From the NCBI GenBank assembly GCA_000004985.1, contig GG738864.1: DNA of 64,000 bases, one strand, 5' to 3'. The position numbers and the translations under genes were made by a program. The notes under the pieces were generated by a model. It saw nothing but the letters and a program-made list of their open reading frames with translations. It was not told where the DNA came from and made no database searches. The stretch's first letter is position 1. Every line of letters begins with the position of its first letter. Below are positions 3,566 to 50,881 of the stretch, piece after piece. This stretch comes from Naegleria gruberi (taxonomy: Eukaryota).

Positions 3566-5987
3566 ATGTTGGATATTACTCATCAATTACCTCCGGAAAT
3601 ATTGTCAAAAGTATTTTCATATGTAGCTAGGGAACCATTGTATTTGTATTGCTTTTCAAATTTACCACTCGTATGCAAGACTTTTAAGAAATTATTGGAA
3701 ATGGCAATTTGCGTTCATCATGATGAGGGATGTATTGATGATCAATTAGAGTTGTCATTTTCAACAAATATCAAATCAACCTTTCAACATAATTTAGTGG
3801 TTGATTTTCTGACTCTTCCAATGCTATCAAAGATTGTAAACTCAAAAAGATTGAGTGATGTTTTGAGTGGTGTTTCTCAAATTTCAATTTTGGACCTTTC
3901 TAATCAGAGATTAATGTTTCAAGCACTACTAAAACAAAACATCAATGAATTACTCAATATTTTAGAGAGTATCTATTTGAAAGGAAAGATAATTAGCAAG
4001 ATTTATTTGTGTGGATGCTTTTCAATCGGAGAATCAATTCAAATGACTAATTTTGTAAAAAGTTTAATAACCATGCATAGAAAATCCACTTCAAAGAATC
4101 TATACATTGACGTTTCTCCTCTCTTTTCTCACAATGAGGCATCTAATGAAGCAACAGAATATTTGAGCTATAATATGGCTGTCACAGAATTGCAAGCAGA
4201 ATTTGAAGATCAGGGTATTCAAATAGTAGATTGGTTTGATTTATTATTCAATCCTATTGAAAGTGACACTGAGTTTTTAGAAAGATTGACCTCTGTAGAT
4301 CCAATGAATATTCCACACGTAAATGTAAAAGGGTGGACTCTTCTACATTCCTCAATACTCAACAGCTATTTCAAAAGTACTCAATACCTCTTGAGTTTAC
4401 CACAAGTTAATGTAAATATTTTCAGTGTTGCAAGTTTCTCCAATGATGACACAATTCGAATTGAACATGATGAAGATGAAATTTCTCCAATTCTTCACAA
4501 AACTGTTCCTACTGTAGATTTCAAATTGAAATACAAAGGCACACCATTATTCTTTGCCTTATATAAGTTGACTTCTAACACTCAATCCTCCTCCTCTAAA
4601 GATGGTGAAGTTGTAGATATGCTTATCCAAAGAGGAGCATCTGTTAATATTGTAGATAATTATGGAAGATCATTCCTACTGATTGCTTTATCATATGGTT
4701 TTCCATTTGATTTTATTACTCATATTGTAGAGAATTTTGGTCAAGTGCACCAATGTGACAACAATAAGAATAGCATTTTCCATCAAATATTCTATTCTCC
4801 ATCTCTATTGAAAGATACAAGGAAAACCAAAAAGGTCTTGGACTTCCTCTTCACCAAAGATTCTCTATTGAGTAATCAAGCTAACGCACCTGGTTTATTA
4901 CCTATTCAAATTCCTTTCCTCTTTTCCAATATGAAAAACATTCTCAATAAGGACTGTGCTTCAGAGTTAGTAATTGCTATTGCACATTTCATCAAATGTG
5001 TAGATGTAAATTTAGGATTGGAAGCATCCACCATGTATATTAATATGGCTATTGATGACTGCCTAACTCTTATCAATGAGTCTAAATTTTCCAAAAAGAA
5101 AATGTTTGTCATTACAAACAAGATATTTATTGGGCTATTGAGAATTAAACTAGATATTTCCTATCATATTGACAAGACAGATATTAATCAAGTAAGAAAT
5201 GAATTTATGAGATTGGATGACGAGTTGGGTCATAATGTTCTTCATAGAATGAAAAAATTGGATTGTATCAAGTCATTCTTTAAATTTCTAGAGCTAGATA
5301 GAGTATCCTATTACTTTTATATTAATAATCCAGATGTTAATGGAAATACTATCCTCCACCATTTAATATCATCGAGTGAAAATGAACTTCAACTCTCGAA
5401 CGATGTCGACAGAATAGTTGAAGAATTATTTGGAGATGTAGGATATAGAAACAAGGAGGGAGAAACACCAACATCTCTTTCAGCTTTGAACGGATACTAT
5501 GCAACAGTTCAGTAAGTTTTTCGAATATTTTTGTAAACTATATAATTATTTCAGTTTTATGCTTTCCAATCAACAAACAGCTCACTACTCTGAGAGACAA
5601 ATCATTGCCCACAACGATAATATACTTCACATTCTAAGAAGTAACAGAGAAAGTGCTTCCAAGAGTTCTGACAATAAGAGACCCTGCCATTCCATCAATT
5701 CTTGTATCAAACTCATTGAACAACAAAACGAAATGCTCATTCAAAATTCCAGAAATCCAAAAACCAAATCCATTAATTTAGCACTCCTCGAGGAGGAATT
5801 AAGAGGAGACAGCTACTCTGATGATAGTAGCACCTCATCAAGAACTAGCTCTGCACCCTCACTCTCTCTCATGGATGTCATCAATCTCAGCAAGGAAAAG
5901 AAACAATCATCCAAGAAGAAAGCTCAAGCCAACAAGAGAAACAAGAAGAAGAAAAGCAAGGAAAAAGACTTTGCCCTCGTCAAGTAA
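3566..5987 (+). CDS. F-box-like / ankyrin-repeat protein with a basic C-terminal tail (2 exons)
   Basis: Exons are 3566..5511 and 5555..5987. The track ORF starts at a TTG at 3494, and the first ATG at 3566 immediately precedes an F-box-like motif (LPPEILSKVFSYV). A 43-nt intron (GTAAGT...TTTCAG, 5512..5554) joins in frame to ORF 5499..5987. ANK repeats are present (GTPLFFAL...VVDMLIQRGASVNIVDNYGRSFLLIAL; NGNTILHHL). The unspliced alternative would stop at 5515. Confidence 0.5.
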
Positions 5988-13776: not shown

Positions 13777-16700
13777 ATGAAAGCATGTTTTTTCGTTCTA
13801 CTCTTGCTCTGCATCTTTCTGTTCAGCCTTGCAAGTCAAATTGACTCACAAAGCCTTCAATATAATATCAGCACGGTTGCAGGTGGTGGTTCTATTGTGG
13901 GTGATGGTTTATTAGCTAATGAGGCTATAACAAGCTACCCGTGTCAATTGGCAATTAGTTCGATTAGTGGAGATTTGTTTTTTGGAGAGGTGGTATCCAA
14001 TAGGATTCGTAAAATTACATCCTCAACTGGTGTGATATCTACTATTGCTGGAACTGGAACTGGTGCATATGGTGGAGATGGCTCCATGGCTACTGCTGCT
14101 CAATTGTTTTATCCTTATGGTGTTGCTCTAAGTTTGGGTGGTGAAATTTATATAGCAGATTCGAATAATAATAGAATTCGTAAAATAGCTACAAATGGTA
14201 TTATTACAACAATAGCAGGAACTGGAACACGTGGATATGATGGAGATGGTGCTTTGGCCACAAGTGCCAAGTTGAATTTTCCTTCATCCATAGCAATTAG
14301 TGCAACCAATGAAATTTATTTCACAGACCAATTGCAATCATAGGATTCGAAAAATAGCAACTAATGGTAATATCTCAACAATTGCAGGAACTGGAACTGG
14401 CAGCTATGGTGGTGACAATGCAATTGCAACAGGTGCACAACTTTATGCACCTGCATGTATTGCAATAGATTCTAATGGTGAATTTTACATTTCCGATTCA
14501 ATGAACCATCGTATTCGAAAAATAGCTACTAATGGTATTATTACAACAATAGCAGGAACTGGAACACATGGATATGATGGAGATGGTGCTTTGGCAATTA
14601 ATGCACAATTATACAGCCCCACGGGGGTTGTTGTCAACTCAAATGGTGATGTTTATATTGCTGACTCAGGTAATAACAGAATTCGAAAAATCTCAAAAGG
14701 ATACATCTCAACAGTAGCAGGAAATGGAATAGCTGGATATAGTGGAGATGGTGGACTATCAACAAGTGCTCAATTAGCCACTCCCCAATCAGTTGCTATT
14801 AATTTAAATGGCGAGATTATAATTGCAGATTCTAATAATAATAGAATTCGTAAAATAGCAACTAATGGAAAAATTTCAACAATTGCTGGAACATCATCAT
14901 TTGGAAATAACATACCAGCTACTTCAGCATCCATCTCACCAGTTGGTGTTCCCACTCTCTACAATAATAAGATAATTTTCGCAGATGAATCTCAAATTAG
15001 ACAAGTAGACCTTGCAACTAATATCATTTCATTAATATCTGGAACTGATTATTTGGCAAGTCCTACAGCAGCTATGTATTTCAACAATGAATTATATATT
15101 CTCTATTCAAAACTCAATTTAGATAAGCCAAAGATTAATATTGTTTCAAGAGTTGTTGGTTCTGAGGGATATAATGGCGATGATATTGCAGCCACTAGTG
15201 CACTGTTGAATTATGCTCGCTCAATTGCTGTCAATTCAAATGGTGATGTTTATATTGCTGACACTTATAATAACAGAATTCGTAAGGTCTCATTTTCAAC
15301 TGGAATCATTTCAACAGTAGCAGGAACTGGAATTGCTGGACAAAATGGTGATGGTAATTTAGCTACAAGTGCACAACTAAATTTTCCTTCAGGAGTTGCT
15401 GTGAGTTCAAATGGTGATATTTATATTGCTGACACTGAAAATCATAGAATTCGTAAGATAGAAACTAATGGATACATTGCAACAGTTGCAGGATCTGGAG
15501 CATCTGGATATAGTGGAGATGGTGGGCTGCTAACTAGTGCTAAATTCCAACAACCTCAAGGAGTGGCTGTGAGTTCAAATGGTGAGATTTATATTGCTGA
15601 CACTGAAAACCATGTGGTTCGTAAAATTTCAACTTCGAATGTACTTTCTACAATTGCTGGAACTGGTTCTTATGGATACAATGGTGACGGTGGATTGGCA
15701 ATTACTGCAAAATTATTCTCTCCCATAGGAGTTGCAATAAGTTCGAGTGGTGAAGTTTTTATTGCTGATAATAACAATCACAGAATACGTAAAATTGCAA
15801 AAGATGGCTATATTTCAACAATTGTTGGCACTGGTTTGAATGGGTATGATGGAGATGGCGATTTGGCTACGAATGCTAAATTGGGTAATCCTCAAGGTGT
15901 GACTCTAAGTCCAACTGGTGAATTGTTTATTGCTGACCAAAACAATCATAGAATTCGTAAAGTAGCAAGTAATGGATATATTTCAACTGTTGCTGGTAAT
16001 GGTAACTTTGGATTTAGTGGAGATGGTGATTTGGCAACAAATGCTGAATTGAATAGTCCTTCAGGAATAGCATTCAGTTCCATTGGTACCATGTATATTG
16101 CTGATCGTTTAAATAGAGTAATTCGAAGAGTAATCTCTGGTAATATATCCACCATTGCTGGAGGTGTTGGTGATGGAGGACCAGCTACTGGAGGATACAT
16201 TCAAGCACAATCATTTGACATTTCTTCAACTGGTGAGATTTATATTGCTGACACTGAAAATCATAGAATTCGTAAAGTTTCAACATTGGGTAAAATTTCA
16301 ACTATTGCAGGAACTGGTGCAATGGGATACAGTGGTGATGGTGGATTGGCAATTACTGCAAAATTATCCTCTCCCGTAGGAGTTGCAGTTAGCTCAACTG
16401 GTGAAGTTTTTATTGCAGACCGAGACAACCATAGAATTCGTAAAGTAACACTTTCTGGTATCATTACAACCATTGCAGGAAATGGAACTAGTGGTTTTAA
16501 TAGTGATGGAATTGAAGCAAAATTTGCTCAATTGAATAGCCCTTCCTCAGTCACAATTTCAGGTGGTGAAATCTATATTGCTGACACAAACAATCATAGA
16601 ATTCGTCAAATATCCAATACTGGTATTATTAAAACAATTGCTGGAAATGGATTTGGTGGATATATTGGTGATGGTGTATTGCCACCTAATGCTCAATTGA

Positions 16701-19700
16701 ATAGTCCTTCAGGAGTTGCAATTTCTTCCACTGCTGAAATTTACATTGCAGAAAATAAGAGAATTAGAAAACTTACAGCGTTCTGTACAGAGAATGGTGT
16801 GTTGATTGATGGAAAGTGTGTATTTCAATGTTTTGGATATACGAATAGTAATTCCTCACTTGTTTGTTCTGGAAAGGGCAACTGTATTGGAAATGATAAG
16901 TGCAACTGTTCATGGCCATACTCTGGTTCCAAATGTGATGAGTTTTATTGCAATGGAGTGTTGAATACTAACAAAACATTTGTGTGTTCATCTCATGGTA
17001 CTTGCTCATCTCCAAACAATTGTTCTTGTGTCGATGGTTTTTATGGAAATATTTGTGAATTCTTTTATTGTAATGGCGTACAACAAAATAGTTTAAATGT
17101 ATGCTCAGGTCATGGACTCTGCTCTTCTTTGAATAATTGCACCTGTCAACAAGATTATTCAGGCATTGATTGTGAAAATTTCCATTGTTATGGACTGTCT
17201 AGAGTTGATCCTAAAGTTTGCTCATCTCATGGAATTTGCTCTTCCATAAATAATTGCTCATGTGCAACTGGATATGGTGGATCTAAATGCAACGAATATT
17301 CATGTTATGATGTGAATTCTACGAATAAGACAGTTTGTTCTGGAAGAGGAACTTGTTCTTCTCCCAATAATTGTACATGCGATCCAGGATACTATGGATC
17401 AAATTGTGAATTGTACGATTGTTATGGAATATCCAAAAACAATTCGAATGTCTGCTCAGGACATGGTACTTGCATTGCTATCAATAATTGTACATGTACA
17501 GATGGTTACTATGATACCAAATGTGATTCATTCAATTGTGCAGGAGAGAAATTCACTGGTCAATCACTGTGTCAGAATAATGGTACTTGTTCTAATCCTG
17601 GTAATTGTGATTGTCCTTATCAGTTTGGAGGTGCCAGATGTGAATATTACAAATGTTATACCTATACTTCTAATGAAGCAAAAGTATGTGGCGGGCATGG
17701 TACTTGTTTAAATTACAATAATTGTTCTTGCTCTGGCAAGTGGATTGGTGACGATTGTACACAGACTACTTGTTATGGTAAAAGTTCAAACTCTAGCTCA
17801 GTATGTGGTGGAAGAGGTAATTGCACAGACTTTAATCAATGCACATGTTATGATGGGTATAGAGGTGTCGAATGTCAACACATTGTCTGTTTTGATAAGA
17901 TTGAAAACGATACATCAGTTTGTTCAGGAAATGGCAAATGTCTAACATCAAACAATTGTACATGTCAAATTGGTTATGTTGGAAATGAATGTCAATATCA
18001 CGAAATTTATTTGAATACCTCATCTGCCATAATATTTTCATTCCAGGAAAGTTTAATGAAATTGTTGCCAAATGAGAGTGGAATATTTTCATGTTCTGAA
18101 ATTTTCACTGATTCTGAAATTGCCAAATTTGGAGAAAGTACTTCGATTTCTTGCCAATGGAGAAGAAATTCACTCCTAATTCATCTTGGATTTGATTATT
18201 CTATTCAACAATACTCAATTATTCAATCAAAATTCAACTTTTCAATGAGAGTTTCTAGCTTGTCCTCAGTTTCTAATAGTGATGCTCCATCTCCAACTTG
18301 TTCTTTCGGATATGTATTGAATGAAGCTTCTCCATTATTGGATGTAGTGATACGTTTGAATTGTGATGAGAATTTGCATGGTTTTAAAAAGAGTAGAACC
18401 AGTTGGATGTGTAGTCAATGTACAGGAGCAATTTCATCAATTTTAAGTAACTATTCGAATAGATCCAGTGTTTATATTCCAATTTCGTATATGAACGCTT
18501 TGAATCCTGTTCAAGGATACAAGACAATTAATTTGCAAGCTTCTTATTCATCATCTGTTTCTTCCACCATTTCCACTAGTAAGGAAGTAAAGGTTCAAAC
18601 CTATACGAAATCTTTACCTCCAAGTTATTACTGGCTAAGTGATAATTATGATGGAAAAACCTATTCATGTGTTGGCCATAATTGTATCATTGAAACTTCA
18701 TTGAATAGTTTAAACTCCTCAATTTCTTATTCATTCTCTGGTTTATTTAGTTTATTGAACACTGATTTATATTCGAAACAAATGGTGAGATTGATAAATG
18801 AATTTTCAGGAGGAATTGTCGACAGTGAATTCAGTTCTAACATGCAAGTTTTTGGAGTTCAACTCAAGACCTATGTTTACTTACCGTATAGTATTGATTC
18901 ATTCAAATATTCCACATTTACAAATTTGGATTATGTCATGACAGGCGTCAATAGAACCTACTCAATCAATGCAGATAACTTAATAACTATAGGTTTGACT
19001 ATTGATGATCCATACATTTCAAAATACACATTAAGTGATTACATGGTATTCTCCTGGAAATGTTTCCAAGTTTCTCCTTCTAATAGGTCTTTAATTTTGA
19101 CCGATAATTTGTGTTCCTCAATAACTGACAATGCCAAATCAAATATTGAATTGGATATCAGCAAAATGTCTTTGAAAGAAGGTTCATATTTAATATCTGC
19201 TTCAATTTCATCGACTAAATACTTTGTTACAACAGTTTACAATTATGAAGGATGGATTGACTTGTTGGGAATTTCACAGGATTCTCCTCAGATAACTACA
19301 GATTATGTACCTGCTATTACTCCTTCTCATCACAATATTTATTTAAGAAATGTGGTGAAATCTTCAACAAGTGTTTCATTCTATTGGAAACTCAAAAGTG
19401 GTGAATTGAATATTGACGAAACTGTTGAAGATTTCCTTCAAAGAAATACAGTTTCTAAATCTATCTTGGGTAACAATGTTGAAATTATCTTGAATATTGA
19501 CAATGATTATCTCATCCAAGGAGAATATTATGAATTTGAATTGTCAACCAAGAATTCTAACGGTGTTTCAAATATTTCCATTTCAACAAGAATGGATTTC
19601 ACTCCTCGATTGTCATGTAATGTGGAAAATGTGAAGAATGAAGCTAACTTGACCAGTTTTGAATCTTTAATATCTATTACATGTGTAAAATTGCCATACG

Positions 19701-22134
19701 AAAGTATATCAAGTTTCGTCATGGAATTCCATTCACAAAACGAAAGATTAGGAGTCATTTCGAATACTCCAAAGAAGGCTCTTATTACCAGAGTTCCTTA
19801 TGCAATGGATGGAACAGTTACCTTAATCGTGAAACTTCAAAATTTATATGGATCTATTGGAATTTATAGAACTACTATCAGCGCTCAATTACCAAATGCT
19901 TTGACAAGTGACAACTCTATTTCTTCAAGATTTACATATGTATCCAAACAATTCCAAATTCTCAAAAATGCTCAACCAGCCAAAATTGAAGTTTCCAACG
20001 AAGTCAACACCTTACTTTCTTTATTAATCCAAAACGAAACTCTTTCTAAAATTTCAGAGAAAATTTCAAAGGAATTGAAATCTGATCAATTAGTTTCCTT
20101 TAATACAATGCTCAAAGAAATGCTAACCCTCACCAAGAGTCTACAAGACATTACTTACAAAGTTGATGAAAGATTAATTCAATTAATTCTGCCAATTGTC
20201 AACAAAATTTCCACAATTCTCAAATTAACTCTTGACACATCGTCATTATCCAATTTTGCTTCAGAATTGGAAATTTGGTTGGACTGGATTTATTCAGGAA
20301 TGAATAAGGCACTCAATTACTATCCAACTTTCATTTACAAGGAATTATTAGATGAATTTCATTTACAAGAAATTGTTTCGTTACAAAATATACTTTCGAA
20401 TATATACCAAAATAATTTGGATCAACAATTTAAATACCACAAGTACAATTTACAATATATCAAGCTTACAGGAAGTAATAGTGATAATTCAAGCTTTGTG
20501 GAAGATGTTGAGTTTTCTGATTTATTGAATGACAAGTCAATTTCACTTTCTGTTTCTAATTTTAAAGTTGATATGAAATTACCAAGTGATTTTACCAATC
20601 AAATTTCATTGAAATCAAAATCAAAACTATACTATTCCATTACCTCATTCAGTGATAATCAAACTGGTTCAAAACTTTTACAAAACAAACCAATAATTGA
20701 CCTATCTCTGTACGATACATCTTACAATGCAATATCAGTTGACAACATTAATCCACCAATAGTTTTCAAGTTCCAAGGATTGTTTTCCACTAACAAGACT
20801 AATATTAACACAACTTGTGTCTATTACAATACCATACTAGGAAAATGGTCAACCAATGGATTGCAAACAATTACAAGCGTTACCAAACGAACTGAAGAGT
20901 ACATGTACTTTGATATGGAATGTCATTCAAGTCACTTGTCTGTATTCTCAGTTCAAGAGGTTGATTACAACACCCCAATTATACCAGCCATTTCATCTAA
21001 CAAAGCTTCAAACCAACAAGAAAATCTCACCATTATTTTAGCTACTGTTTTACCTGTTAGCTTTTTAATCCTTATTTTCATTATTATCCTCTTTGTGTTT
21101 ATCATTTTACTATTCAGATTTAAGCAAAAGAAAGCAAATGAATTTGCCATTGCAACCAAAACCAATCTTGAAATGGAAGGTTTCTCAAGCAGTGATTTCC
21201 CATCCTCAGAAGGAAGCATGTTTATTCATCCTCTTATGAGTATTTCCTCAAATGGAACAACTAGTGAAGCATTCAATCCATTGTCAAGATATTCTGATTT
21301 AGTAAGAATTGGCCAAGGAGCTTTTGGAAGTGTTTTTAAAGCATTTGATAGTAAGACGTCAACTGTTAAGGCGATTAAGGTAATTAAATATTCATCCATG
21401 GAGGAGTTGAATAATTTCATGAAAGAAGGAACGCAGTTGATGAATGTGACACATCCTTATATTTTGAGAGTGAATGATTTCTTTGTGAGTAAGGATCAAT
21501 TGCTATGTATAGATATGGATTTTTATGAATTAGGAGATTTGGTCAAATTGACCAATGTTGAATTTGATTGCTCGGAGAAGTTAATCAAACAAATTATTTA
21601 TCAAATGTGTCAAGCTTTGGATTATATTCACTGCAATATGAAAATCATTCACAGAGATATCAAACCATCTAATGTTTTTGTAAAGAGTATGGAAAATGAC
21701 GATATTCACATTATTGTTGCCGATTTCGGATTGGCTAAATCAAATATTGGTGGATCAATGAATAATTCCTATGCAGGTACACCTATATTTATGGTAAGTT
21801 TTCAAATATTTCTTTCGATTCGAATAATTTTTAGTCTCCTGAACTTGGCTTGGGTGGAAAATATTATTACAATACTGATATTTACAGTTTAGGTGTTACT
21901 GTATATCAAATAATGACCAAAGACACCTCTACTTCAATCAGTCAATTGTATCTTGGAAAGGAACAAAATGAAGTTACAACGCTATTGAGAAAAAAGCTTA
22001 AAGATGGTGGACATTATTCTGAACGAGTTGTGGAATTGGTTTTACAAATGTTAACAAAGGATAATTTAACTAGGCCACAAGCTCAAGATATTTTGGAAAA
22101 TTCCTATTTTGATGATTTGAGAATGAAACGATAA
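13777..22134 (+). CDS. Giant receptor Ser/Thr kinase with NHL beta-propeller repeats, EGF-like repeats, a TM segment and a kinase domain (single-base frame disruption near 14332; one 41-nt intron)
   Basis: The signal peptide is MKACFFVLLLLCIFLFSLA. About 28 NHL-type repeats (...YIADSxNNRIRKIxxNG.ISTIAGTG...) run through ORFs 13777..14343 and 14300..21892, which differ by one base. About 15 EGF-like modules (C..G.C...N.C.C..GY.G..C) follow, then about 1000 aa of unknown ectodomain, a TM helix (IILATVLPVSFLILIFIIILFVFIILLF) and a kinase (GQGAFGSV, AIK, HRDIKPSN, DFG, GTPIFM). A GTAAGT...TTTTAG intron at 21794..21834 leads to exon 21835..22134 (SPELGLGGKYYYNTDIYSLGV). The stop is TAA. Confidence 0.7.
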
Positions 22135-39241: not shown

Positions 39242-41095
39242 TTATTCTGAAACAGAAGCTCCTTTTCTTCTCATTACCAAATTACCAATCATGTACTTGG
39301 TAGTCAGAGTTTGAGCAATAGTTCCAATACCATCCACACCAATCTTTTCATTGTTACCAATATCGACACGTTTGAGAGTTTTGTGATCGATAAGAGCCTT
39401 GACTAAACTCTTGGCACCTGCATTATCGAATGGATTTCCGTGTAAACTCAAATCCTTGAGTCCTCTATTGTAAAGGATACCGTCATTACATAAACGAATA
39501 AGACCCTCTGATCCAATAGCATTGAATGACAAGTCCAAAGTTGCCAATGTCTTATTGGCCTTCAATCCTTCAGCGAGAGCTGAGCAACCTTCATCTCCAA
39601 TATTATTATGACCCAAATCCAAACGTTTGAGAAGTGAATTTGAGCATAGAGCTTTGGAAATTGATTTGGCACCATCTGAACCGACTCTATTATAGGAAAT
39701 ATCAAGTCTTTTGAGTGAAACATTGCCTAGTAAGAGATCGCTCAAATAAACACAACCAACATTTCCAATATTATTATGTGAAAGAGTTAATCTCTTCAAT
39801 GTAATGTTAATAAATAGACCGTCTATTAAATCACAAATACCAAAATCAGAAATCAAGTTAAATGACATATCAAGTGAAGTAATAGTTTGATTATCAGCCA
39901 AACCATGGGCCAATAACTTTAAATGTTCATCACCAACATTACAATTGACAATGGATAAACTCTTGAGTGAAACTCTAGAACTTTGAATACAGGTTGTAGT
40001 AAGAGCTTTCAAATCTGAAATTGTGAAAGGATCTTCACCTTCCAAAACTAATTTTTCAATATTAGATTCACGTTTAGCATCATTTTCCTTGTCTTCATCT
40101 GAAGAAGTATCAATAGCAGCAACTGCAGTCAATAACATAACAACAGACAAGAGTGGTCTCTCAACTCCACAAATTTTACAATCGACAAAGTAATCCTCAA
40201 CGAAAATACAAGCTCTAATTCTCTTAACCCAATCCTTGGCATCTTGCATACTTGGAGCAGCCATAAACAGTTCACGATCAGCTGCAATAACACAAAACTT
40301 GTACTTGTAGGCATTGCTTTCGAGTTTTCTTTGAATTTTTGATTGATCACCTCCACCTGCTGAGCTTTCATTATTTGCAGATGATGAATTGGATCCCTTA
40401 GTATTGGTTTCTTCATCTTCATCATCACTATCTAAATCTTCATTATCTAAAACTGTATTAATTCTAATAGTTTGAAAGAAACTATCATAATTTTGAATAT
40501 CTCCCAAATAATAAACTTGAGCTCCCTTCAAATCCATTCTACCTTTGACATCATTTTCATTCTTTTTAGCATTTTTGAAATAGGTCAACACTGAACCTTT
40601 AATTTGGAAATAACGCTATTTACACATTCATCACAAATTTCACATAAATTTCACATAAATTGTTATTCGAAATACATTATTAAAATAAATTTTCATCAAA
40701 TTCAATTTAAATTTCATCACCAATCATCATTATAACCACAATACAAATTACACATTTCATACGAAACTCAACTAAACACTTACCTTCTTCCAACTCTTCA
40801 CCACACGTCCTTCCTTTATCAAAAACCCTTCCTTCCACACTTTTTCATTATATTCCGTATAAATATCGAATCCCTGTGATCCAGGTGTACCAACAGGACT
40901 CGAAGGAGAAGACAAATCATGATTTGAATTTGTTCTGGAAATTGTTTGCAAAGTTGTTGGAGTAATTTGTGAAGTTCCACCGAGGTAGGAAAATCCGCTG
41001 CCACTTCCTTGTTTTTGTAGAGGTGAAGTGGTAGTTGGTGATCCTGTTGGTGTAGAGCTGCCTGAATCCTTCTTCTTGTTGAAGATGCTACGCAT
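39242..41095 (-). CDS. PH-domain + LRR (RI-type) protein (2 exons)
   Basis: Exons are 40784..41095 and 39242..40615. Exon 1 ends ...VWKEGFLIKEGRVVKSWKK followed by GTAAGT. A 168-nt intron (40616..40783, acceptor AATAG) leads to RYFQIKGSVLTYFKN..., which completes the PH fold. The downstream part has about 8 LRR_RI repeats. The track's M at 40591 is a non-ATG start. Confidence 0.65.
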
Positions 41096-45143: not shown

Positions 45144-46013
45144 TTAATCGAGGGATTGAGATGCAAAACGTCCAGTATAAACAGCTCTACCTTCAAGCTT
45201 CATAAAGACGAATTGACACAAGTGAGTGCCTGGATACAATGCAAGAGAATTAGGACTAATGGAGTGTCAAAATGCAAAATTCATTTCAATAAACTTACCT
45301 AGCATTGAAAATTTCCAAGACTTGCTTGTTGTTAATACCTGGTTGCATGAAACCAGCAGTGATGTGAATAGCAAGACCCATACGAGCGAATCTAGATCTA
45401 CCTTCCAACAAACCACAGAAACTTGGTGAAATACTGACAGTTTCTTCAGTGATGCCCAAAACAGTTTGACCTGGTTTGAGAACAAAGCATTCACCCTTTG
45501 GAACCTTAACAACCTTTGAGTATTGCTTATAGTCAACGTCATCAGTAATTGGAATAACATCTTCGGAAACTGTCATTTCTCTGAATTCATCTCCAAGAGT
45601 TCTGTATAAGCATTATAAAATTGCATCATATTCAATATTGCATTTTGTATCATCATTTTGTGGTCAATAACATTTTCATTGCATTTTGATGAAATTTTTC
45701 ATGAATTTAAAAACACAAAGATTTTAAAAAGACACCTACAAGTCATAAGAAGCAGGACCCAAGTGAGACAAGTTGAATGGAGTGATGGTAATTTGTCTAT
45801 AGAGTTGCATCATTAAAAAGGTTCATATCAAACGTTACATTGATCATCACAATGACACACAACAATACATTCAAACATGGTCATCATTCCGAGTAATAAT
45901 ATCAAACAAAAGAGTAGCAGATTTATTGTTGGCACCCTGATGTGTGTCCAACCTTCTTCAACTTACTTGGCTTGAATAGCTTTCAAAATCGAGTCGCGGG
46001 AGAGAACAGACAT
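45144..46013 (-). CDS. dCTP deaminase-like (dUTPase-fold, bacterial/archaeal dcd type), 4 exons
   Basis: Exons are 45967..46013, 45740..45796, 45299..45601 and 45144..45255. The introns are 170, 138 and 43 nt (donors GTAAGT, GTAGGT, GTAAGT). The spliced protein is MSVLSRDSILKAIQAKQITITPFNLSHLGPASYDLTLGDEFR...GRSRFARMGLAIHITAGFMQPG...LEIFNASPNSLALYPGTHLCQFVFMKL... These motifs match the dcd N-terminus (M.L.DRDI), the substrate loop (PASYDLRLG) and the GRSSLARLG / TAGFIDPG signatures. Confidence 0.7.
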
Positions 46014-46549
46014 TTTTTTATATTAATTTATATATTAAATAATACAAATGATATTATTAGAGTATCTTTGTCTTGATTACTTTTTTGGGTGCATCAAGAA
46101 TTTTCTGCTCCATGCAACTTTCCAGGCGGCGGAATATATGTGAGGATTTATTTGACTGTGTATTACTTCATGAAATTAATATTAAACACTGTTTGGTACT
46201 ACAGATTTTACACTTGGAAGATAACGGGTAAAATTTCATACTGCTTTCATTCATCTGGGTAATGTCAATCAGCTTATTAAGGTTCTAATGGTTTCGTATT
46301 GTTACACCATCACTTGGCTGGGATAAATGGAAAAAAAAAGAGTCAACTAGTTCAATATTTGCTTTCAATTAGTTGGTTGAGCATAGTGGTATTTTAACCA
46401 TGAACCGTTCTCATTACTTTTCTAAAGTTTAAAAAATAGCAAAATGAAACTTATCAATTTTCTAAGTCTTCTTGATAGCTGTTGGTGCACTGTCTTCTAA
46501 CTTGGTTTCGTCACAAGAAGTTAGGGATGTTTCTTTGAAAGTATGTTAA

Positions 46550-47877
46550 AAATCTCTAGATTTAGTCAATTACAAGCTTTTAAGATACACTGGCTTCTCT
46601 ATCGACCTAATTCAATTTCTTGTTTCCAAAATGACAAACGTGTCCATTGAATTTTATGAAGCTCCAGATGGTACCTTTGGTAGTCCAACTGCTGCGAATG
46701 TGAATGGAAACTGGTCAGGAACCATCGGTGAAATAATATCTGGTCGTGCTGATGTCATGATTGGCCCTTTAACAATTACTCAAAGTAGACATCAAGTCAT
46801 GGATTTTACAACAAGTTTCTTTGATGTTGGACTTTCTATTCTAACTCTTAAACAAGGAGAGGAATCTAATTTATTTTCATTCTTATTACCATTCTCGTGG
46901 GAGGTTTGGATTTTGATTTTCGTGAGTGCATTAATAGTTGCCTTGCTAACATGGGTTTTTGACCATGTTTCGCCTTATGGACATTCGAAACAATCAGACG
47001 AATCAAAGAATGAATTTGATTTTAGTGGTTCGTTAATCAATGTATGACAATATCTGGTCAAGACGGAAATCCAGGTAAAAGCTGGTCAACCAGAATCATG
47101 TTGTTAGGTTATTTCCTCTTTGTCATGATTATTCTCTCAACTTATACAGCTAATTTGGCAGCCGTCCTGACAACAAAGGTTCAATCCACAAGAGTTACTG
47201 GACTATCTGATATCAGAACCTACGGATTCAAGTTTGGTGTGGCTAAAAACTCTGCTCCTGCTTCTTACATTTCCAGCAGTGAAGACATGGCAGATATCAA
47301 AAAGAATATGGTTGTATTCGATTCCCTCGATGATTGTTTACAAGCTCTGAGAGATGGAAAGGTGGATGCTTTGATTTGGGCAAGTGCCATTCTCGAATAT
47401 ATGGCCAATCAACCACCATGTGATACTTTGGTCGTTGGTGATTTGTTTAGTCCTGGAAATTATGGTTTACCTTTTGCTAAGGGAAATTGGATGATTGGTC
47501 ATTTCACTTCGGTGTTGTTGTCGATGAGAGAAAGTGGACTTGTTGAGAAACTCAAAAGGAAGTGGTGGATTGATAAGGGAAGCTGTTCATTGGTTGAATT
47601 GACACAAACAGCAACAGGTGTAAAGATTCAAGACTTGGGAGGTATCTTTTTGATTTTGGCAGGTTTTGTAGTTGTTGGTGGTGTGGTTTTGATATTCGAA
47701 TTAGTATATAGGGCTGTATATGACAAGACAAAACACAAAACTAAACATCTGAAATATCTGAATAGATTCTTGGGAGGTGAAAAGCACCTAGTTCAACGTG
47801 AGAAAGATGTACAGGAATTGAACACCACGAATATTGCAACTCCAACACTCGAAAAAGATGGGAATATGAACCAGTAA
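46550..47877 (+). CDS. Ionotropic glutamate receptor-like channel (S1-M1-pore-M2-S2-M3, no amino-terminal domain); 5' exon unresolved; single-base frame disruption near 47024-47026
   Basis: Features are S1 (YTGFSIDLIQFL...NGNWSGTIGEIISGRADVMIGPLTITQSR), M1 (FLLPFSWEVWILIFVSALIV), a pore loop with the SYTANLAAV(LTT) signature, S2 (KVDALIWASAILEY...GLPFAKGN) and M3. ORF 46631..47047 and ORF 47044..47877 are offset by one nucleotide across the M1-pore linker (NEFDFS|WFVNQCMTISGQDGNP). The frame is open upstream to 46550, and a candidate first exon with ATG lies at 46444. Confidence 0.6.
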
Positions 47878-48055: not shown

Positions 48056-48173
48056 GGCTACGGCCATATCACGATGAATGCACCTCATCCCGTCCGATTT
48101 GAGAAGTTAAGCATCGTCGAGCCACATCAGTACTGAGGTTGGAGACAACTTGGGAACCTGTGGTGCTGTAGTC
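48056..48173 (+). rRNA. 5S ribosomal RNA
   Basis: GGCTACGGCCATATCACGATGAATGCACCTCATCCCGTCCGATTTGAGAAGTTAAGCATCGTCGAGCCACATCAGTACTGAGGTTGGAGACAACTTGGGAACCTGTGGTGCTGTAGTC matches the eukaryotic 5S consensus, and its terminal helix pairs GGCTAC with GTAGTC. A T6 run follows. The 5' boundary is accurate to about 3 nt. Confidence 0.85.
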
Positions 48174-48179
48174 TTTTTT
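48174..48179 (+). terminator. RNA polymerase III T-run terminator of the 5S gene
   Basis: TTTTTT lies immediately after the 5S 3' end. Confidence 0.6.
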
Positions 48180-48321: not shown

Positions 48322-49278
48322 TTACACCATCAAACAGCCTTTCTTTTTTTTATGTAGAGATAATACCTCTTCCAGCACTTTTTTTGGATCATCAATACGT
48401 ACTCGAAACTTTCTAACACATTCTTCCACTAATTTATCAATATTTTCATTTGTTTTTGCACTTGTTTTCAAAATTGTACAATTAGTCAATTCAAATTCTT
48501 TTACAACTTCTTGTACCATTTCCAAATTAATTTCATACCTATCAGGGAGATCACATTTGTTCATGGCAATCATACAGGGAGCATTCTTTCCCTTCCTATC
48601 TACAAATTTACTTATCAATATTTTCAATTCTTCCAAACTTTTCTGGTCTATCATTGAGCAAACAAGAATCAAAACATCGAACATGCAATTTTTCCAATAA
48701 TAATCAGTTTCTTCCTCACTACACGTATCCAAAAAGTTTACAGTTTCCTCTTCATCATCCACAGAGATTGTTCGTTTGTACGAATCATAACCGGTAGGGT
48801 CATATTCTAGGAAGAATTGCCCATATATAAATCTTGTTATGATTGAGGATTTTCCACTGCCTCCCCTTCCAATCACTAACAGCTCAATAATTGGTGTATC
48901 AAATTTTTTTCTAAATATTTTCCCTTGTTTTTCTCTTGTTCGAATCAAATGAATAAAGTAACCTAAACTTTTAACAACTCCAATCTTGGCGAATTTATCA
49001 AAAACATGCAAAGATTCCATTTCTTTTGATTCTACTGATATCGAATACTGATCAAATATCACACCAACAAAAATCCAACAAAATTCATCAATGTATTTTG
49101 CAATAAATTTCGAATAATTTGGATGAATCAATCGGAAACTTAATACATTCGGAATGGAGTTTTTTAATTGATGGAAATATTGTTCATGCAATTTTCTTTC
49201 AGCTAACTCATAAAACGGAGACAAGTATGAAATAATTTCTGTATGAATCTCTTGGGGAAGTTGAAGAAATTTGGACAT
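48322..49278 (-). CDS. F-box-like N-terminus fused to a Ras-family GTPase with a polybasic-CAAX tail
   Basis: ATG at 49278. The N-terminus has LQLPQEIHTEIISYLSP (F-box-like). The GTPase core has G1 GRGGSGKSS, G4 MNKCD and G5 TSAK. The C-terminus HKKKKGCLMV is a polybasic stretch plus CAAX before TAA. The gene is intronless. Confidence 0.65.
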   Translation of the reverse strand: MSKFLQLPQEIHTEIISYLSPFYELAERKLHEQYFHQLKNSIPNVLSFRLIHPNYSKFIAKYIDEFCWIFVGVIFDQYSISVESKEMESLHVFDKFAKIGVVKSLGYFIHLIRTREKQGKIFRKKFDTPIIELLVIGRGGSGKSSIITRFIYGQFFLEYDPTGYDSYKRTISVDDEEETVNFLDTCSEEETDYYWKNCMFDVLILVCSMIDQKSLEELKILISKFVDRKGKNAPCMIAMNKCDLPDRYEINLEMVQEVVKEFELTNCTILKTSAKTNENIDKLVEECVRKFRVRIDDPKKVLEEVLSLHKKKKGCLMV

Positions 49279-49393: not shown

Positions 49394-49466
49394 GCCGACA
49401 TAGCTCAGTTGGGAGAGCGTAAGACTGAAGATCTTAAGGTCCCTGGTTCGATCCCTGGTGTCGGCA
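49394..49466 (+). tRNA. tRNA-Phe (anticodon GAA)
   Basis: The sequence is GCCGACATAGCTCAGTTGGGAGAGCGTAAGACTGAAGATCTTAAGGTCCCTGGTTCGATCCCTGGTGTCGGCA. It has a 7-bp acceptor stem (GCCGACA/TGTCGGC), a D-loop AGCTCAGTTGGGAGAGC, an anticodon loop ACTGAAGAT, a T-arm GGTTCGATCC and discriminator A. There is no intron, and it is followed by a T5 run. Confidence 0.9.
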
Positions 49467-49864: not shown

Positions 49865-50881
49865 TCAAATAACACCAATATCAAGTGATGTTAATTGTTT
49901 CATTTCACTTATGAATTTGGATCCTTCTACACCAATTTGATTGTAAGTAATGTCAAGTGATGTTAATTGTTTCATTTCACTTATGAATTTGGCTCCTTCT
50001 ACACCAATTTGATTGCCAGTAATATTAAGTGTTAATTGTTTCATTTCACTTATAAATTTGGATCCTTCTACACCAATTTGATTGTAACCAATATTAAGTG
50101 ATGTTAATTGTTTCATTTCACTTATATATTTGGATCCCTCTACACCAATCCCATTATAATATATATCAAGTGATGTTAATTGTTTCATTTCACTTATGTA
50201 TTTGGCTCCTTCTACACCAATTTGATTGTAACCAATATTAAGTGATGTTAATTGTTTCATTTCACTTATATATTTGGTTCCCTCTACACCAATTCCATTA
50301 TAATATATATTAAGTGATGTTAACTGTTTCATTTCACTTATGTATTTGGATCCTTCTACACCAATTTGATTGTAAGTAATGTCAAGTGATGTTAATTGTT
50401 TCATTTCACTTATGTATTTGGCTCCTTCTACACCAATTTGATTATCAGAAATATAAAGTGATGTTAATTGTTTCATTTCACTTATGAATTTAACTTTATC
50501 TGGAGAGTTACGCAACCTATAACAAAACTTAACATTTACAATACTATTCTTGAATTGGCTTTTCATAAACAATTCAATTCTATTTTCTGTAAATTGTTTT
50601 TTAAATTGAATAACAAGTCTTGAACGTTCCCGGATCACATTAAAGAATTGTTTTGAAATTAAAGAACAATTATTCAAAATAAACCACGAATCATCAATCA
50701 TGGAAATTATGTCAAAACAAACATCATCTGAAAATATATCTTGTTGGAGTTTCACAACTTTTTTTGCTTTCTCTTTCATCGAATAATTATCATTAATCAA
50801 TAGCTCCTCCGAAATTAATTGATTTGCAAAATCTTGGCTGATTCGTTTGCTCATTTTTTTATTACTAATAGTTTTCTTCAT
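49865..50881 (-). CDS. F-box-like / LRR (RI-type) protein with about 11 near-identical 24-aa repeats
   Basis: ATG at 50881. The N-terminus (FDIISMIDDSWFILNNCSLISKQFFNVI) is F-box-like. It is followed by tandem LTSL(N/D)I.YNQIGVEGAKYISEMKQ repeats. The stop is TGA at 49865. Confidence 0.7.
   Translation of the reverse strand: MKKTISNKKMSKRISQDFANQLISEELLINDNYSMKEKAKKVVKLQQDIFSDDVCFDIISMIDDSWFILNNCSLISKQFFNVIRERSRLVIQFKKQFTENRIELFMKSQFKNSIVNVKFCYRLRNSPDKVKFISEMKQLTSLYISDNQIGVEGAKYISEMKQLTSLDITYNQIGVEGSKYISEMKQLTSLNIYYNGIGVEGTKYISEMKQLTSLNIGYNQIGVEGAKYISEMKQLTSLDIYYNGIGVEGSKYISEMKQLTSLNIGYNQIGVEGSKFISEMKQLTLNITGNQIGVEGAKFISEMKQLTSLDITYNQIGVEGSKFISEMKQLTSLDIGVI
49871..50495. repeat. Tandem array of about 8.5 copies of a 72-bp unit (one 69-bp copy) inside the LRR gene
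   Basis: The unit tcaagtgatgttaattgtttcatttcacttatgaatttggatccttctacaccaatttgattgtaagtaatg recurs with more than 90 percent identity, and the differences cluster at a few positions. It encodes the 24-aa LRR repeat. Confidence 0.8.

What the first reader, a model, noticed from the sequence alone, without database searches (positions are those of the whole stretch)
46444..47877. iGluR-like channel without an amino-terminal domain, with SYTANLAAV pore signature
S1-M1-P-M2-S2-M3 are all recognisable. That includes the near-canonical SYTANLAAF gating motif in a protist-type genome. The available upstream space (the gene 5' of it starts at 46013) is too small for an ATD, so the gene is GluR0-like in size. 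The 5' exon and signal peptide are unresolved (candidate ATG at 46444). A one-base offset near 47024..47026 splits the M1-pore linker; a 38-nt GT-AG alternative would delete the conserved WF...QG.D linker, so it is less likely.
Basis: partly seen in the sequence, partly recalled or inferred. Interest (0 to 1): 0.5.

Follow-up and report, generated by a model that had tools for sequence, protein, structure and literature searches.

The report
Broken Naegleria glutamate-receptor-like channel gene
This is a real glutamate-receptor-type ion channel gene of the amoeba Naegleria gruberi that naturally lacks the large N-terminal domain. It is already in public databases and in a published phylogeny, and this copy has a broken reading frame that the public gene model hides with a false intron.

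Summary
Window 46444-47877 (+) encodes an iGluR-superfamily subunit: S1, M1, pore loop, M3 with TYTANLAAV, S2, M4 and a short tail, with no room for an ATD. Pfam, PDB sequence search (GluN1, E 3.5e-55) and an AlphaFold/Foldseek match to AMPA/NMDA LBD-TMD all agree.

The locus is N. gruberi NAEGRDRAFT_66900 (XP_002677912.1). Its 380-aa public model is exactly window 46631-46921 + 47026-47874. That model splices out a 104-nt "intron" that is really M1. The accession is already in the dataset of Commun Biol 2025;8:994, which describes an Amoebozoa/Discoba iGluR clade.

New points:
- The frame break is at 47041/42 (4 nt missing relative to the paralogue), not at 47024-26.
- The 5' part has two more defects, a +1 offset after ATG 46444 and an in-frame TAA at 46547-49, and the conserved PPF strand of S1 is missing.
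- The clade (17 sequences, 84% bootstrap) is uniformly ATD-less and keeps M4.
- The Naegleria subclade has lost the acidic alpha-amino-binding residue (Asp to Ala).

The most likely reading is a recently disabled paralogue. Assembly error is not excluded.

The parts
46444..46500 (+). Candidate start ATG and short frame-A ORF MKLINFLSLLDSCWCTVF*. It is hydrophobic, is probably the start of the original signal peptide, and is out of frame (+1) with what follows.
46466..46546 (+). Frame-B signal-peptide-like core and first S1 strand (VFLIAVGALSSNLVSSQEVRDVSLKVC). It is collinear with full-length relatives but has no ATG in frame.
46547..46549 (+). In-frame TAA inside collinear S1 coding sequence, at the place of the conserved (Q/E)PPF strand.
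46583..46897 (+). S1 half of the ligand-binding domain, from RYTGFSIDL on. It includes DGTFG, and PLTITQSR with Thr at 46772-74 and Arg at 46787-89. The Met used by the public model is at 46631.
46898..46960 (+). M1 transmembrane helix (WEVWILIFVSALIVALLTWVF).
46922..47025 (+). The 104-nt 'intron' (GTGAGT...TTTTAG) of public model XP_002677912.1. It is really coding sequence for M1 and the M1-pore linker, highly similar to the paralogue's coding sequence there.
47039..47047 (+). Frame break: AAT GTA TGA. Frame B ends at TGA 47045-47 and the coding frame continues in frame A from TGT 47041-43. Relative to the paralogue's LIN-A-CMT, 4 nt are missing.
47041..47082 (+). Pore (re-entrant M2) loop CMTISGQDGNPGKS. 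There is no TXVGYG K+ filter.
47083..47175 (+). M3 helix with the gate motif TYTANLAAV (47140-47166).
47176..47634 (+). S2 half of the ligand-binding domain. The Trp equivalent to GluN1 W731 is at 47377-79. Ala replaces the alpha-amino-binding Asp732 at 47380-82. The disulfide cysteines are at 47419-21 and 47584-86.
47635..47709 (+). M4 transmembrane helix, aligned to GluN1 M4.
47710..47877 (+). Short cytoplasmic tail and TAA stop (47875-77).
47025..47062 (+). It restores the frame but deletes SGSLINCMTISGQD, the pore-helix region. Rejected.

Best explanation
The locus is Naegleria gruberi NAEGRDRAFT_66900. It belongs to a small clade of ionotropic-glutamate-receptor-type subunits found in Heterolobosea and Amoebozoa. 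The clade's built-in architecture is signal peptide, S1, M1, pore loop, M3, S2, M4 and a short tail, about 450-500 aa, with no amino-terminal domain.

Inferred from homology with solved iGluRs: intact members should form tetrameric ligand-gated cation channels. A small ligand closes the S1/S2 clamshell, and that movement pulls open the M3 bundle crossing at TYTANLAAV.

Shown: in the Naegleria subclade the carboxylate-binding Arg and Thr are kept, but the acidic residue that binds the ligand's alpha-amino group is Ala/Val/Asn/Thr. Inferred: the agonist is probably not a standard alpha-amino acid and may be another carboxylate.

This particular copy cannot be translated into a full-length subunit from the sequence given. 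It has a +1 offset between ATG 46444 and the signal-peptide core, an in-frame TAA at 46547-49 where the conserved PPF strand should be, and a 4-nt gap (a -1 shift) at 47041/42 between M1 and the pore loop. It is most likely a recently inactivated paralogue of NAEGRDRAFT_46318. The public 380-aa model restores an ORF only by splicing out M1 and is an annotation artefact.
For: Family identity:
- Pfam hits.
- GluN1 at E 3.5e-55 and GluA2 at about 1e-48, aligned S1 to M4.
- AF2 model plus Foldseek match to LBD-TMD chains.

Identity of the locus:
- P0001 is the exact translation of 46631-46921 + 47026-47874.
- Accession numbers.

The public intron is false:
- The 'intron' aligns as coding sequence for M1 and the linker with paralogue P0002. 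That frame-B HSP is 85% identical overall (116/137).

The three lesions:
- tblastn switches frame at 47041 with P0002, L001, P0004, P0005 and NAEGRDRAFT_58252.
- All relatives have N(A/S)x at the point where the window lacks 4 nt.
- The alignment with P0005 runs collinearly through the TAA.
- The distance from signal-peptide cleavage to YxGF is the same as in relatives, 29 aa.
- A profile of 16 full-length N-termini matches only from RYTGF onward.
- Of 642 models (0-2 GT-AG introns) that keep an open frame, none restores a normal N-terminus.

Family and sequence quality:
- Relatives in L001 and L002 are intronless continuous ORFs.
- The surrounding assembly is clean, for example an uninterrupted 2530-aa ORF, so three defects within 600 nt are unlikely to be random sequencing errors.

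Clade:
- The top hits of an exhaustive HMM search are 407-592 aa and ATD-less.
- The clade is monophyletic in 84% of NJ bootstraps.
- Ligand-binding residues are tabulated.
- The clade is published in Commun Biol 2025;8:994.
Against: - No transcript or read-level data could be obtained.
- A relative-rate test shows no acceleration of this copy: 18 unique changes against 12 for the paralogue, not significant. Any inactivation must therefore be recent.
- The body of the gene has no internal stop in 415 codons.
- The paralogue's public model starts at the same internal Met, and the third N. gruberi model also lacks a signal peptide. The 5' problem may therefore be shared or an annotation limit rather than decay of this copy.
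- The in-frame TAA directly follows a good GTATGT donor. A 36-nt in-frame intron (46541-46576) would remove it, and introns of 41-43 nt seem to occur in this genome.
Confidence: 0.6

Rival explanations
1. The gene is intact and functional in the organism. The frame break at 47041/42, and possibly the 5' offset and the TAA, are errors of the draft Sanger assembly.
For: - The coding body is otherwise clean and evolves no faster than the intact paralogue.
- All functional motifs are retained: Arg/Thr, both cysteines, the gate motif and M4.
Against: - Three independent defects lie within 600 nt, in a window whose other genes have long uninterrupted ORFs.
- None of the three sits in a homopolymer.
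- The break at 47041 is most simply a 4-nt gap, not a 1-nt miscall.
- The PPF strand is replaced by unrelated residues, which base-calling errors cannot explain.
Confidence: 0.2
2. The gene is functional with an unconventional 5' structure. Examples are a real 36-nt intron at 46541-46576 that removes the TAA, an unrecognised first exon, or translation from Met 46631. This structure would be shared with paralogue NAEGRDRAFT_46318, and only the 47041 break would be an error or a recent lesion.
For: - Public models of both paralogues start at the same Met, and no N. gruberi model has a signal peptide.
- A GTATGT donor lies right before the TAA.
- Short introns are plausible in this genome.
- The paralogues differ by only about 17% with few indels. 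That suggests purifying selection on the body after duplication (inference).
Against: - The 36-nt intron would delete a core beta-strand of S1, and its acceptor is a weak AAG.
- It still leaves no in-frame ATG, because frame B has none upstream.
- A protein starting at Met 46631 would lack a signal peptide and helix A of S1, although that helix is clearly encoded just upstream.
Confidence: 0.15
3. The public model is right: a 104-nt intron (46922-47025) is spliced out and yields a 380-aa protein. Alternatively, the reader's 38-nt intron (47025-47062) is real.
For: Both candidates have GT...AG ends and restore an open frame.
Against: - Both remove sequence that is coding and conserved in the paralogue and in all relatives: M1 and its linker, or the pore helix.
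- An M1-less subunit would put S1 on the wrong side of the membrane (inference from iGluR topology).
- The public model also reads five codons (WFVNQ) in the wrong frame.
Confidence: 0.03

Closest known systems
Amoebozoa/Discoba iGluR clade (Commun Biol 2025;8:994, PMC12226733)
   Same: This locus (XP_002677912.1), its paralogue XP_002681313.1 and a third N. gruberi gene, XP_002676467.1, are in that paper's sequence set. [quoted passage not shown] That matches my GluN1 best hit and my NJ clade with Pyxidicula and Pelomyxa.
   Different: As far as the main text could be searched, the paper does not describe the missing ATD, the altered binding pocket or the state of this gene. It used the M1-less model as it stands.
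Animal NMDA-receptor subunit GluN1 (for example PDB 7yfg)
   Same: It is the best solved relative, at E 3.5e-55. The following are conserved: Phe484, Pro516, Thr518 and Arg523, Trp731, both S2 disulfide cysteines, 7 of 9 residues of SYTANLAAF, and M4.
   Different: There is no ATD. Asp732 is Ala and Ser688 is Ala. The start of the pore helix is 3 residues shorter, and Ile lies at the aligned N-site. The C-tail is much shorter. Identity is about 30%.
Prokaryotic GluR0 (Synechocystis)
   Same: There is no ATD and the size is similar. The arrangement is an S1/S2 domain of the periplasmic-binding-protein type interrupted by a pore.
   Different: GluR0 has no M4 and has a TXVGYG K+ filter (my own knowledge; also stated in PMC3483616). 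This gene has M4 and no GYG. Bacterial relatives score far lower, 72-87 bits against 190-275 bits for animal ones.
Insect ionotropic receptors (IRs)
   Same: They are ATD-less subunits with M4 in which one or more of the Arg/Thr/Asp ligand-binding residues is lost, and they serve as chemosensors (my own knowledge of Benton et al. 2009). The Naegleria subclade shows the same pattern: Arg and Thr kept, Asp lost.
   Different: IRs are a protostome offshoot of animal iGluRs. The similarity to sandfly IRs here is weak (52 bits), and they fall elsewhere in the tree. Any functional parallel would be convergent.
Plant GLRs
   Same: They share the superfamily, the M1-P-M3-S2-M4 layout and an SYTANL-type gate.
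   Different: GLRs carry an ATD. Similarity is low: Juncus GLR scores 68 bits and is 20% identical.

Membership tests
iGluR superfamily (Pfam Lig_chan + Lig_chan-Glu_bd) | Two-lobed ligand-binding domain made of S1 and S2, split by the channel segments | tested here: met
   Pfam PF10613 at 4.8e-23 and PF00497 spanning S1 and S2. The AF2 model matches LBD-TMD chains. However, the first S1 strands are not detectable.
iGluR superfamily (Pfam Lig_chan + Lig_chan-Glu_bd) | M1, re-entrant pore loop and M3 with an SYTANLAAF-type gate | tested here: met
   PF00060 at 1.3e-26 over profile positions 1-143. TYTANLAAV lies at 47140-66.
iGluR superfamily (Pfam Lig_chan + Lig_chan-Glu_bd) | Uninterrupted reading frame that encodes the whole subunit | tested here: not met
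   There is a +1 offset after ATG 46444, a TAA at 46547-49 and a -1 break at 47041/42.
Eukaryotic-type iGluR/GLR | Fourth transmembrane helix (M4) after S2 | tested here: met
   47635-47709, aligned to GluN1 M4.
Eukaryotic-type iGluR/GLR | Conserved disulfide pair in S2 | tested here: met
   Cys at 47419-21 and 47584-86 align with the GluN1 cysteines in KCDLV and QECDS. Both are present in all clade members. Formation of the bond itself was not tested.
Eukaryotic-type iGluR/GLR | Amino-terminal domain (ANF_receptor/LIVBP-like) | tested here: not met
   There is no PF01094 hit. Only 430 nt lie upstream before the next gene. Full-length relatives start S1 directly after the signal peptide.
Amino-acid-gated iGluRs (AMPA/kainate/NMDA/delta) | Arg, Thr and Asp/Glu triad that binds the alpha-carboxyl and alpha-amino groups | tested here: not met
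   Thr and Arg are present (PLTITQSR). The residue equivalent to Asp732 is Ala here and Val/Ala/Asn/Thr in the subclade.
Prokaryotic GluR0-type | No M4, and a K+ channel filter TXVGYG | tested here: not met
   M4 is present and the pore loop CMTISGQDG has no GYG.
Amoebozoa/Discoba iGluR clade | Groups with Naegleria, Pyxidicula and Pelomyxa sequences to the exclusion of animal, plant and bacterial iGluRs | tested here: met
   The 17 ATD-less sequences are monophyletic in 84% of 200 NJ bootstraps. The accession is listed under Discoba in the published dataset.
Functional ligand-gated channel | Ligand-evoked current from the expressed protein | not testable with these tools
   This needs heterologous expression and electrophysiology.

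The most novel reading that the evidence does not exclude
The ATD-less, M4-bearing subunits of amoeboid protists preserve the ancestral eukaryotic iGluR architecture, from before the ATD was acquired. The Naegleria subclade has kept Arg and Thr but lost the amino-binding Asp. It would then be a set of chemoreceptors for non-amino-acid carboxylates, convergent with insect IRs. On this reading the N. gruberi pair, including this locus, is expressed through a 5' structure that current models miss.
Probability: 0.2. Interest if true: 0.6.

Novelty: already known. Interest (0 to 1): 0.3.

Why it matters
The practical value is a correction. The public protein for this locus (XP_002677912.1 / D2VD41) lacks M1 because of a false intron, and that faulty sequence has already entered a published iGluR phylogeny.

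There is also a modest biological point. The Amoebozoa/Discoba iGluR clade has uniformly no ATD yet has M4 and the eukaryotic disulfide cysteines. That bears on when the ATD was added during iGluR evolution. The loss of the amino-binding acidic residue in the Naegleria subclade suggests a change of ligand that could be tested on the intact paralogue.

Tried and rejected
- **Ciliate-style explanations for the frame breaks.** I considered reassigned stop codons, Stentor-like 13-16-nt introns and Euplotes-like +1 frameshifting at stops. The neighbouring gene has ordinary GTAAGT/GTAGGT introns of roughly 150-190 nt. Long ORFs are open in the standard code. The organism is Naegleria.
- **Programmed -1 frameshifting at 47041.** There is no X_XXY_YYZ slippery site in TTAATCAATGTATGA.
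- **Exhaustive splice search.** I enumerated models with 0-2 GT-AG introns from every ATG in 46014-46620; 642 keep an open frame. None gives a signal peptide plus a normal S1 start. The 44-nt and 25-nt introns from GTATGT 46541 hit stop codons in the required exon-1 frame.
- **A displaced 5' exon or second copy in the window.** A profile search and tblastn found none.
- **DNA of the paralogue, or independent N. gruberi reads or transcripts.** Nothing is on record, and two metagenome scans were empty.
- **The Papaver protein P0044.** It ranked high in the exhaustive search, but it is an ordinary plant GLR whose model repeats the LBD-TMD five times. It is not a clade member.
- **Literature.** Searches for Naegleria/Heterolobosea/Excavata combined with iGluR terms found no dedicated study.

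Full report
**What the window is.** GC content is about 33%. Genes are dense, with long ORFs in the standard code. There is a dispersed 5S rRNA gene at 48056-48174 and a tRNA-Phe at 49394-49466. The upstream minus-strand gene has ordinary GTAAGT/GTAGGT introns. A protein search with the stitched translation returned two Naegleria gruberi proteins at 92% and 83% identity. They are XP_002677912.1 / D2VD41 / NAEGRDRAFT_66900 and XP_002681313.1 / D2V345 / NAEGRDRAFT_46318. The 380-aa XP_002677912.1 is exactly the translation of window 46631-46921 joined to 47026-47874. The window is therefore the N. gruberi reference assembly, and the finding is an annotated gene.

**Check of the observation.**
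- Pfam finds Lig_chan-Glu_bd (4.8e-23), Lig_chan (1.3e-26 on the stitched protein) and SBP_bac_3. The Lig_chan profile is covered at positions 1-47 by the upstream frame and 48-143 by the downstream frame, so nothing is missing at the junction.
- phmmer against the PDB gives GluN1 at E 3.5e-55 and GluA2 at about 1e-48, aligned from S1 to M4.
- An AlphaFold2 model of the repaired protein was built from 18 aligned sequences (pLDDT 71, pTM 0.49). By Foldseek it matches the LBD-TMD parts of GluA2, GluA3, GluA4 and GluN1 at E about 1e-24, TM 0.55-0.6, over about 400 columns.
- The upstream dCTP-deaminase-like gene starts at 46013 on the minus strand. That leaves 430 nt, far too little for an ATD.
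- Full-length relatives go directly from a signal peptide into S1.
- The hydrophobic segment after S2 (47635-47709) aligns with GluN1 M4. The layout is therefore the eukaryotic 3+1 type and not that of GluR0.

**The frame break.** tblastn with the paralogue, with a metagenomic relative (L001), with P0004 and P0005, and with NAEGRDRAFT_58252 always gives one HSP in frame B ending at 47041 and one in frame A starting at 47029-47035. The paralogue reads ...NELDFSGSLINACMTISGQDG continuously, and every relative has N(A/S)x at this point. The window has AAT|GTATG. The simplest reading is a 4-nt gap, which gives a -1 shift at 47041/42. In this family that position is S(L/M)xN, so the WF is an out-of-frame coincidence.

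Two intron proposals restore the frame only by deleting conserved coding sequence:
- The 104-nt intron of the public model (46922-47025) deletes M1 and its linker. That stretch aligns as coding sequence with the paralogue, and the frame-B HSP is 85% identical overall.

Both are artefacts.

**The 5' end.**
- ATG 46444 opens a frame-A peptide, MKLINFLSLLDSCWCTVF, which then stops.
- One base out of register, frame B reads VFLIAVGALSSNLVSSQEVRDVSLKVC, then TAA (46547-49), then KSLDLVNYKLLRYTGFSIDL....
- tblastn with P0005 aligns collinearly from 46505 through the TAA.
- The spacing from the predicted signal-peptide cleavage site to YxGF is 29 aa, the same as in relatives.
- The conserved (Q/E)PPF strand is replaced by VC*KSLDL. 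A profile of 16 full-length N-termini matches the window only from RYTGF (46583) on.
- I enumerated every ATG with 0-2 GT-AG introns; 642 models keep an open frame. None gives a normal N-terminus.
- The only tidy option is a 36-nt in-frame intron from GTATGT 46541. It removes the TAA, but it also deletes a core strand and still leaves no in-frame ATG.
- Relatives in L001 and L002 are intronless continuous ORFs of 477-496 aa.

**Pseudogene or error?** The locus has three ORF-disrupting features within 600 nt. None is in a homopolymer, and the window has ORFs up to 2530 aa without interruption. That favours real lesions.

Several points weigh against long-standing decay:
- The body of the gene has no internal stop.
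- A relative-rate test against the paralogue is not significant: 18 unique changes against 12.
- The paralogue's public model starts at the same internal Met, and the third N. gruberi model also lacks a signal peptide. The 5' problem may therefore be shared or an annotation limit.

I could not obtain the paralogue's DNA, reads or transcripts. My estimates are about 0.6 for a recently disabled copy, 0.2 for assembly error, 0.15 for an unconventional but functional 5' structure and 0.03 for either proposed intron.

**The family.** An exhaustive profile search finds 22,167 superfamily representatives. The top group is 407-592 aa and ATD-less. Below about 300 bits the hits become 850-950 aa proteins in which the match starts near residue 430. 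The named members of the top group are:
- Pyxidicula operculata (EukProt).
- Pelomyxa schiedti KAH3765443.1.
- The rest are metagenomic and mostly auto-labelled as ABC-transporter binding proteins.

Seventeen ATD-less sequences form a clade in 84% of NJ bootstraps. Animal iGluRs are the nearest outside group by score, at 228-275 bits, against 68-87 bits for plant and bacterial proteins.

All members keep both S2 cysteines and a YTANL-type gate. About half keep the Arg/Thr/Asp triad. The Naegleria subclade keeps Arg and Thr, but has Ala/Val/Asn/Thr at the position of Asp732. Trp731 is kept.

**Mechanism.** By homology with solved iGluRs, intact members should be tetrameric ligand-gated cation channels. 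Clamshell closure would open the M3 gate. This is inference. Loss of the alpha-amino-binding acid suggests a ligand other than a standard amino acid, as in many insect IRs. This too is inference, and it rests on my own knowledge of IRs.

[quoted passage not shown] Its supplementary sequence file contains XP_002677912.1, XP_002681313.1 and XP_002676467.1. The gene and its family are therefore already known. What this analysis adds is the following:
- The public model is wrong, and the M1-less protein has entered that dataset.
- The true position of the frame break.
- The two further 5' defects.
- The explicit ATD-less, M4-bearing architecture of the clade.
- The altered binding pocket of the Naegleria subclade.

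Noticed in passing
window 48056-48174 (+) and 49394-49466 (+): A stand-alone 5S rRNA gene (Rfam 105 bits) lies 178 nt downstream of the channel gene's stop codon. A tRNA-Phe(GAA) lies 1.2 kb further on. Both are dispersed among protein-coding genes.
   Followed up: no
window about 45267-46013 (-): A dCTP-deaminase-like gene (Pfam DCD, 4.1e-22), a mostly prokaryotic enzyme type. It has two introns with GTAAGT and GTAGGT donors, and its start codon at 46013 bounds the intergenic space.
   Followed up: partly
window 14300-21892 (+): An uninterrupted 2530-aa ORF that combines many NHL repeats, teneurin-type EGF domains and a C-terminal protein kinase. This receptor-kinase-like architecture is unusual for a protist.
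   Followed up: no
window 5512-5554 (+) and 21794-21834 (+): Candidate very short introns of 43 and 41 nt, with a GTAAGTTT donor and a TTTCAG or TTTTAG acceptor. They join long open frames, which suggests the lower limit of intron size in this genome is about 40 nt.
   Followed up: partly
window 48322-49278 (-): A Ras-family GTPase with an N-terminal extension of about 130 aa that has no Pfam match. LRR_6-rich proteins lie at 49865-50881 (-) and 39242-40591 (-).
   Followed up: no
L002:10001-13177: A 13.5-kb metagenomic eukaryote-like contig carries two tandem, intronless, full-length ATD-less iGluR genes (P0004 and P0015). Both were auto-annotated as ABC-type amino-acid-transport binding proteins.
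   Followed up: partly
L001:965-2443: The prokaryotic gene caller started P0003 at an internal Met (1181). The real ORF begins at 965 with a signal peptide and the full S1. A spurious 75-aa minus-strand gene (853-1080) was called over the true 5' end.
   Followed up: yes
P0044 (Papaver somniferum RZC75549.1): This 2362-aa plant GLR model contains the LBD-TMD unit repeated five times almost identically. It is probably an assembly or annotation artefact, and its summed score made it rank among the protist clade.
   Followed up: yes
supplementary file 4 of PMC12226733: A third N. gruberi iGluR, XP_002676467.1 (NAEGRDRAFT_58252), keeps the HQPPF strand and the Trp-Asp pair. Neither of the two word-indexed protein searches returned it, so absences in those searches are not reliable.
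   Followed up: partly
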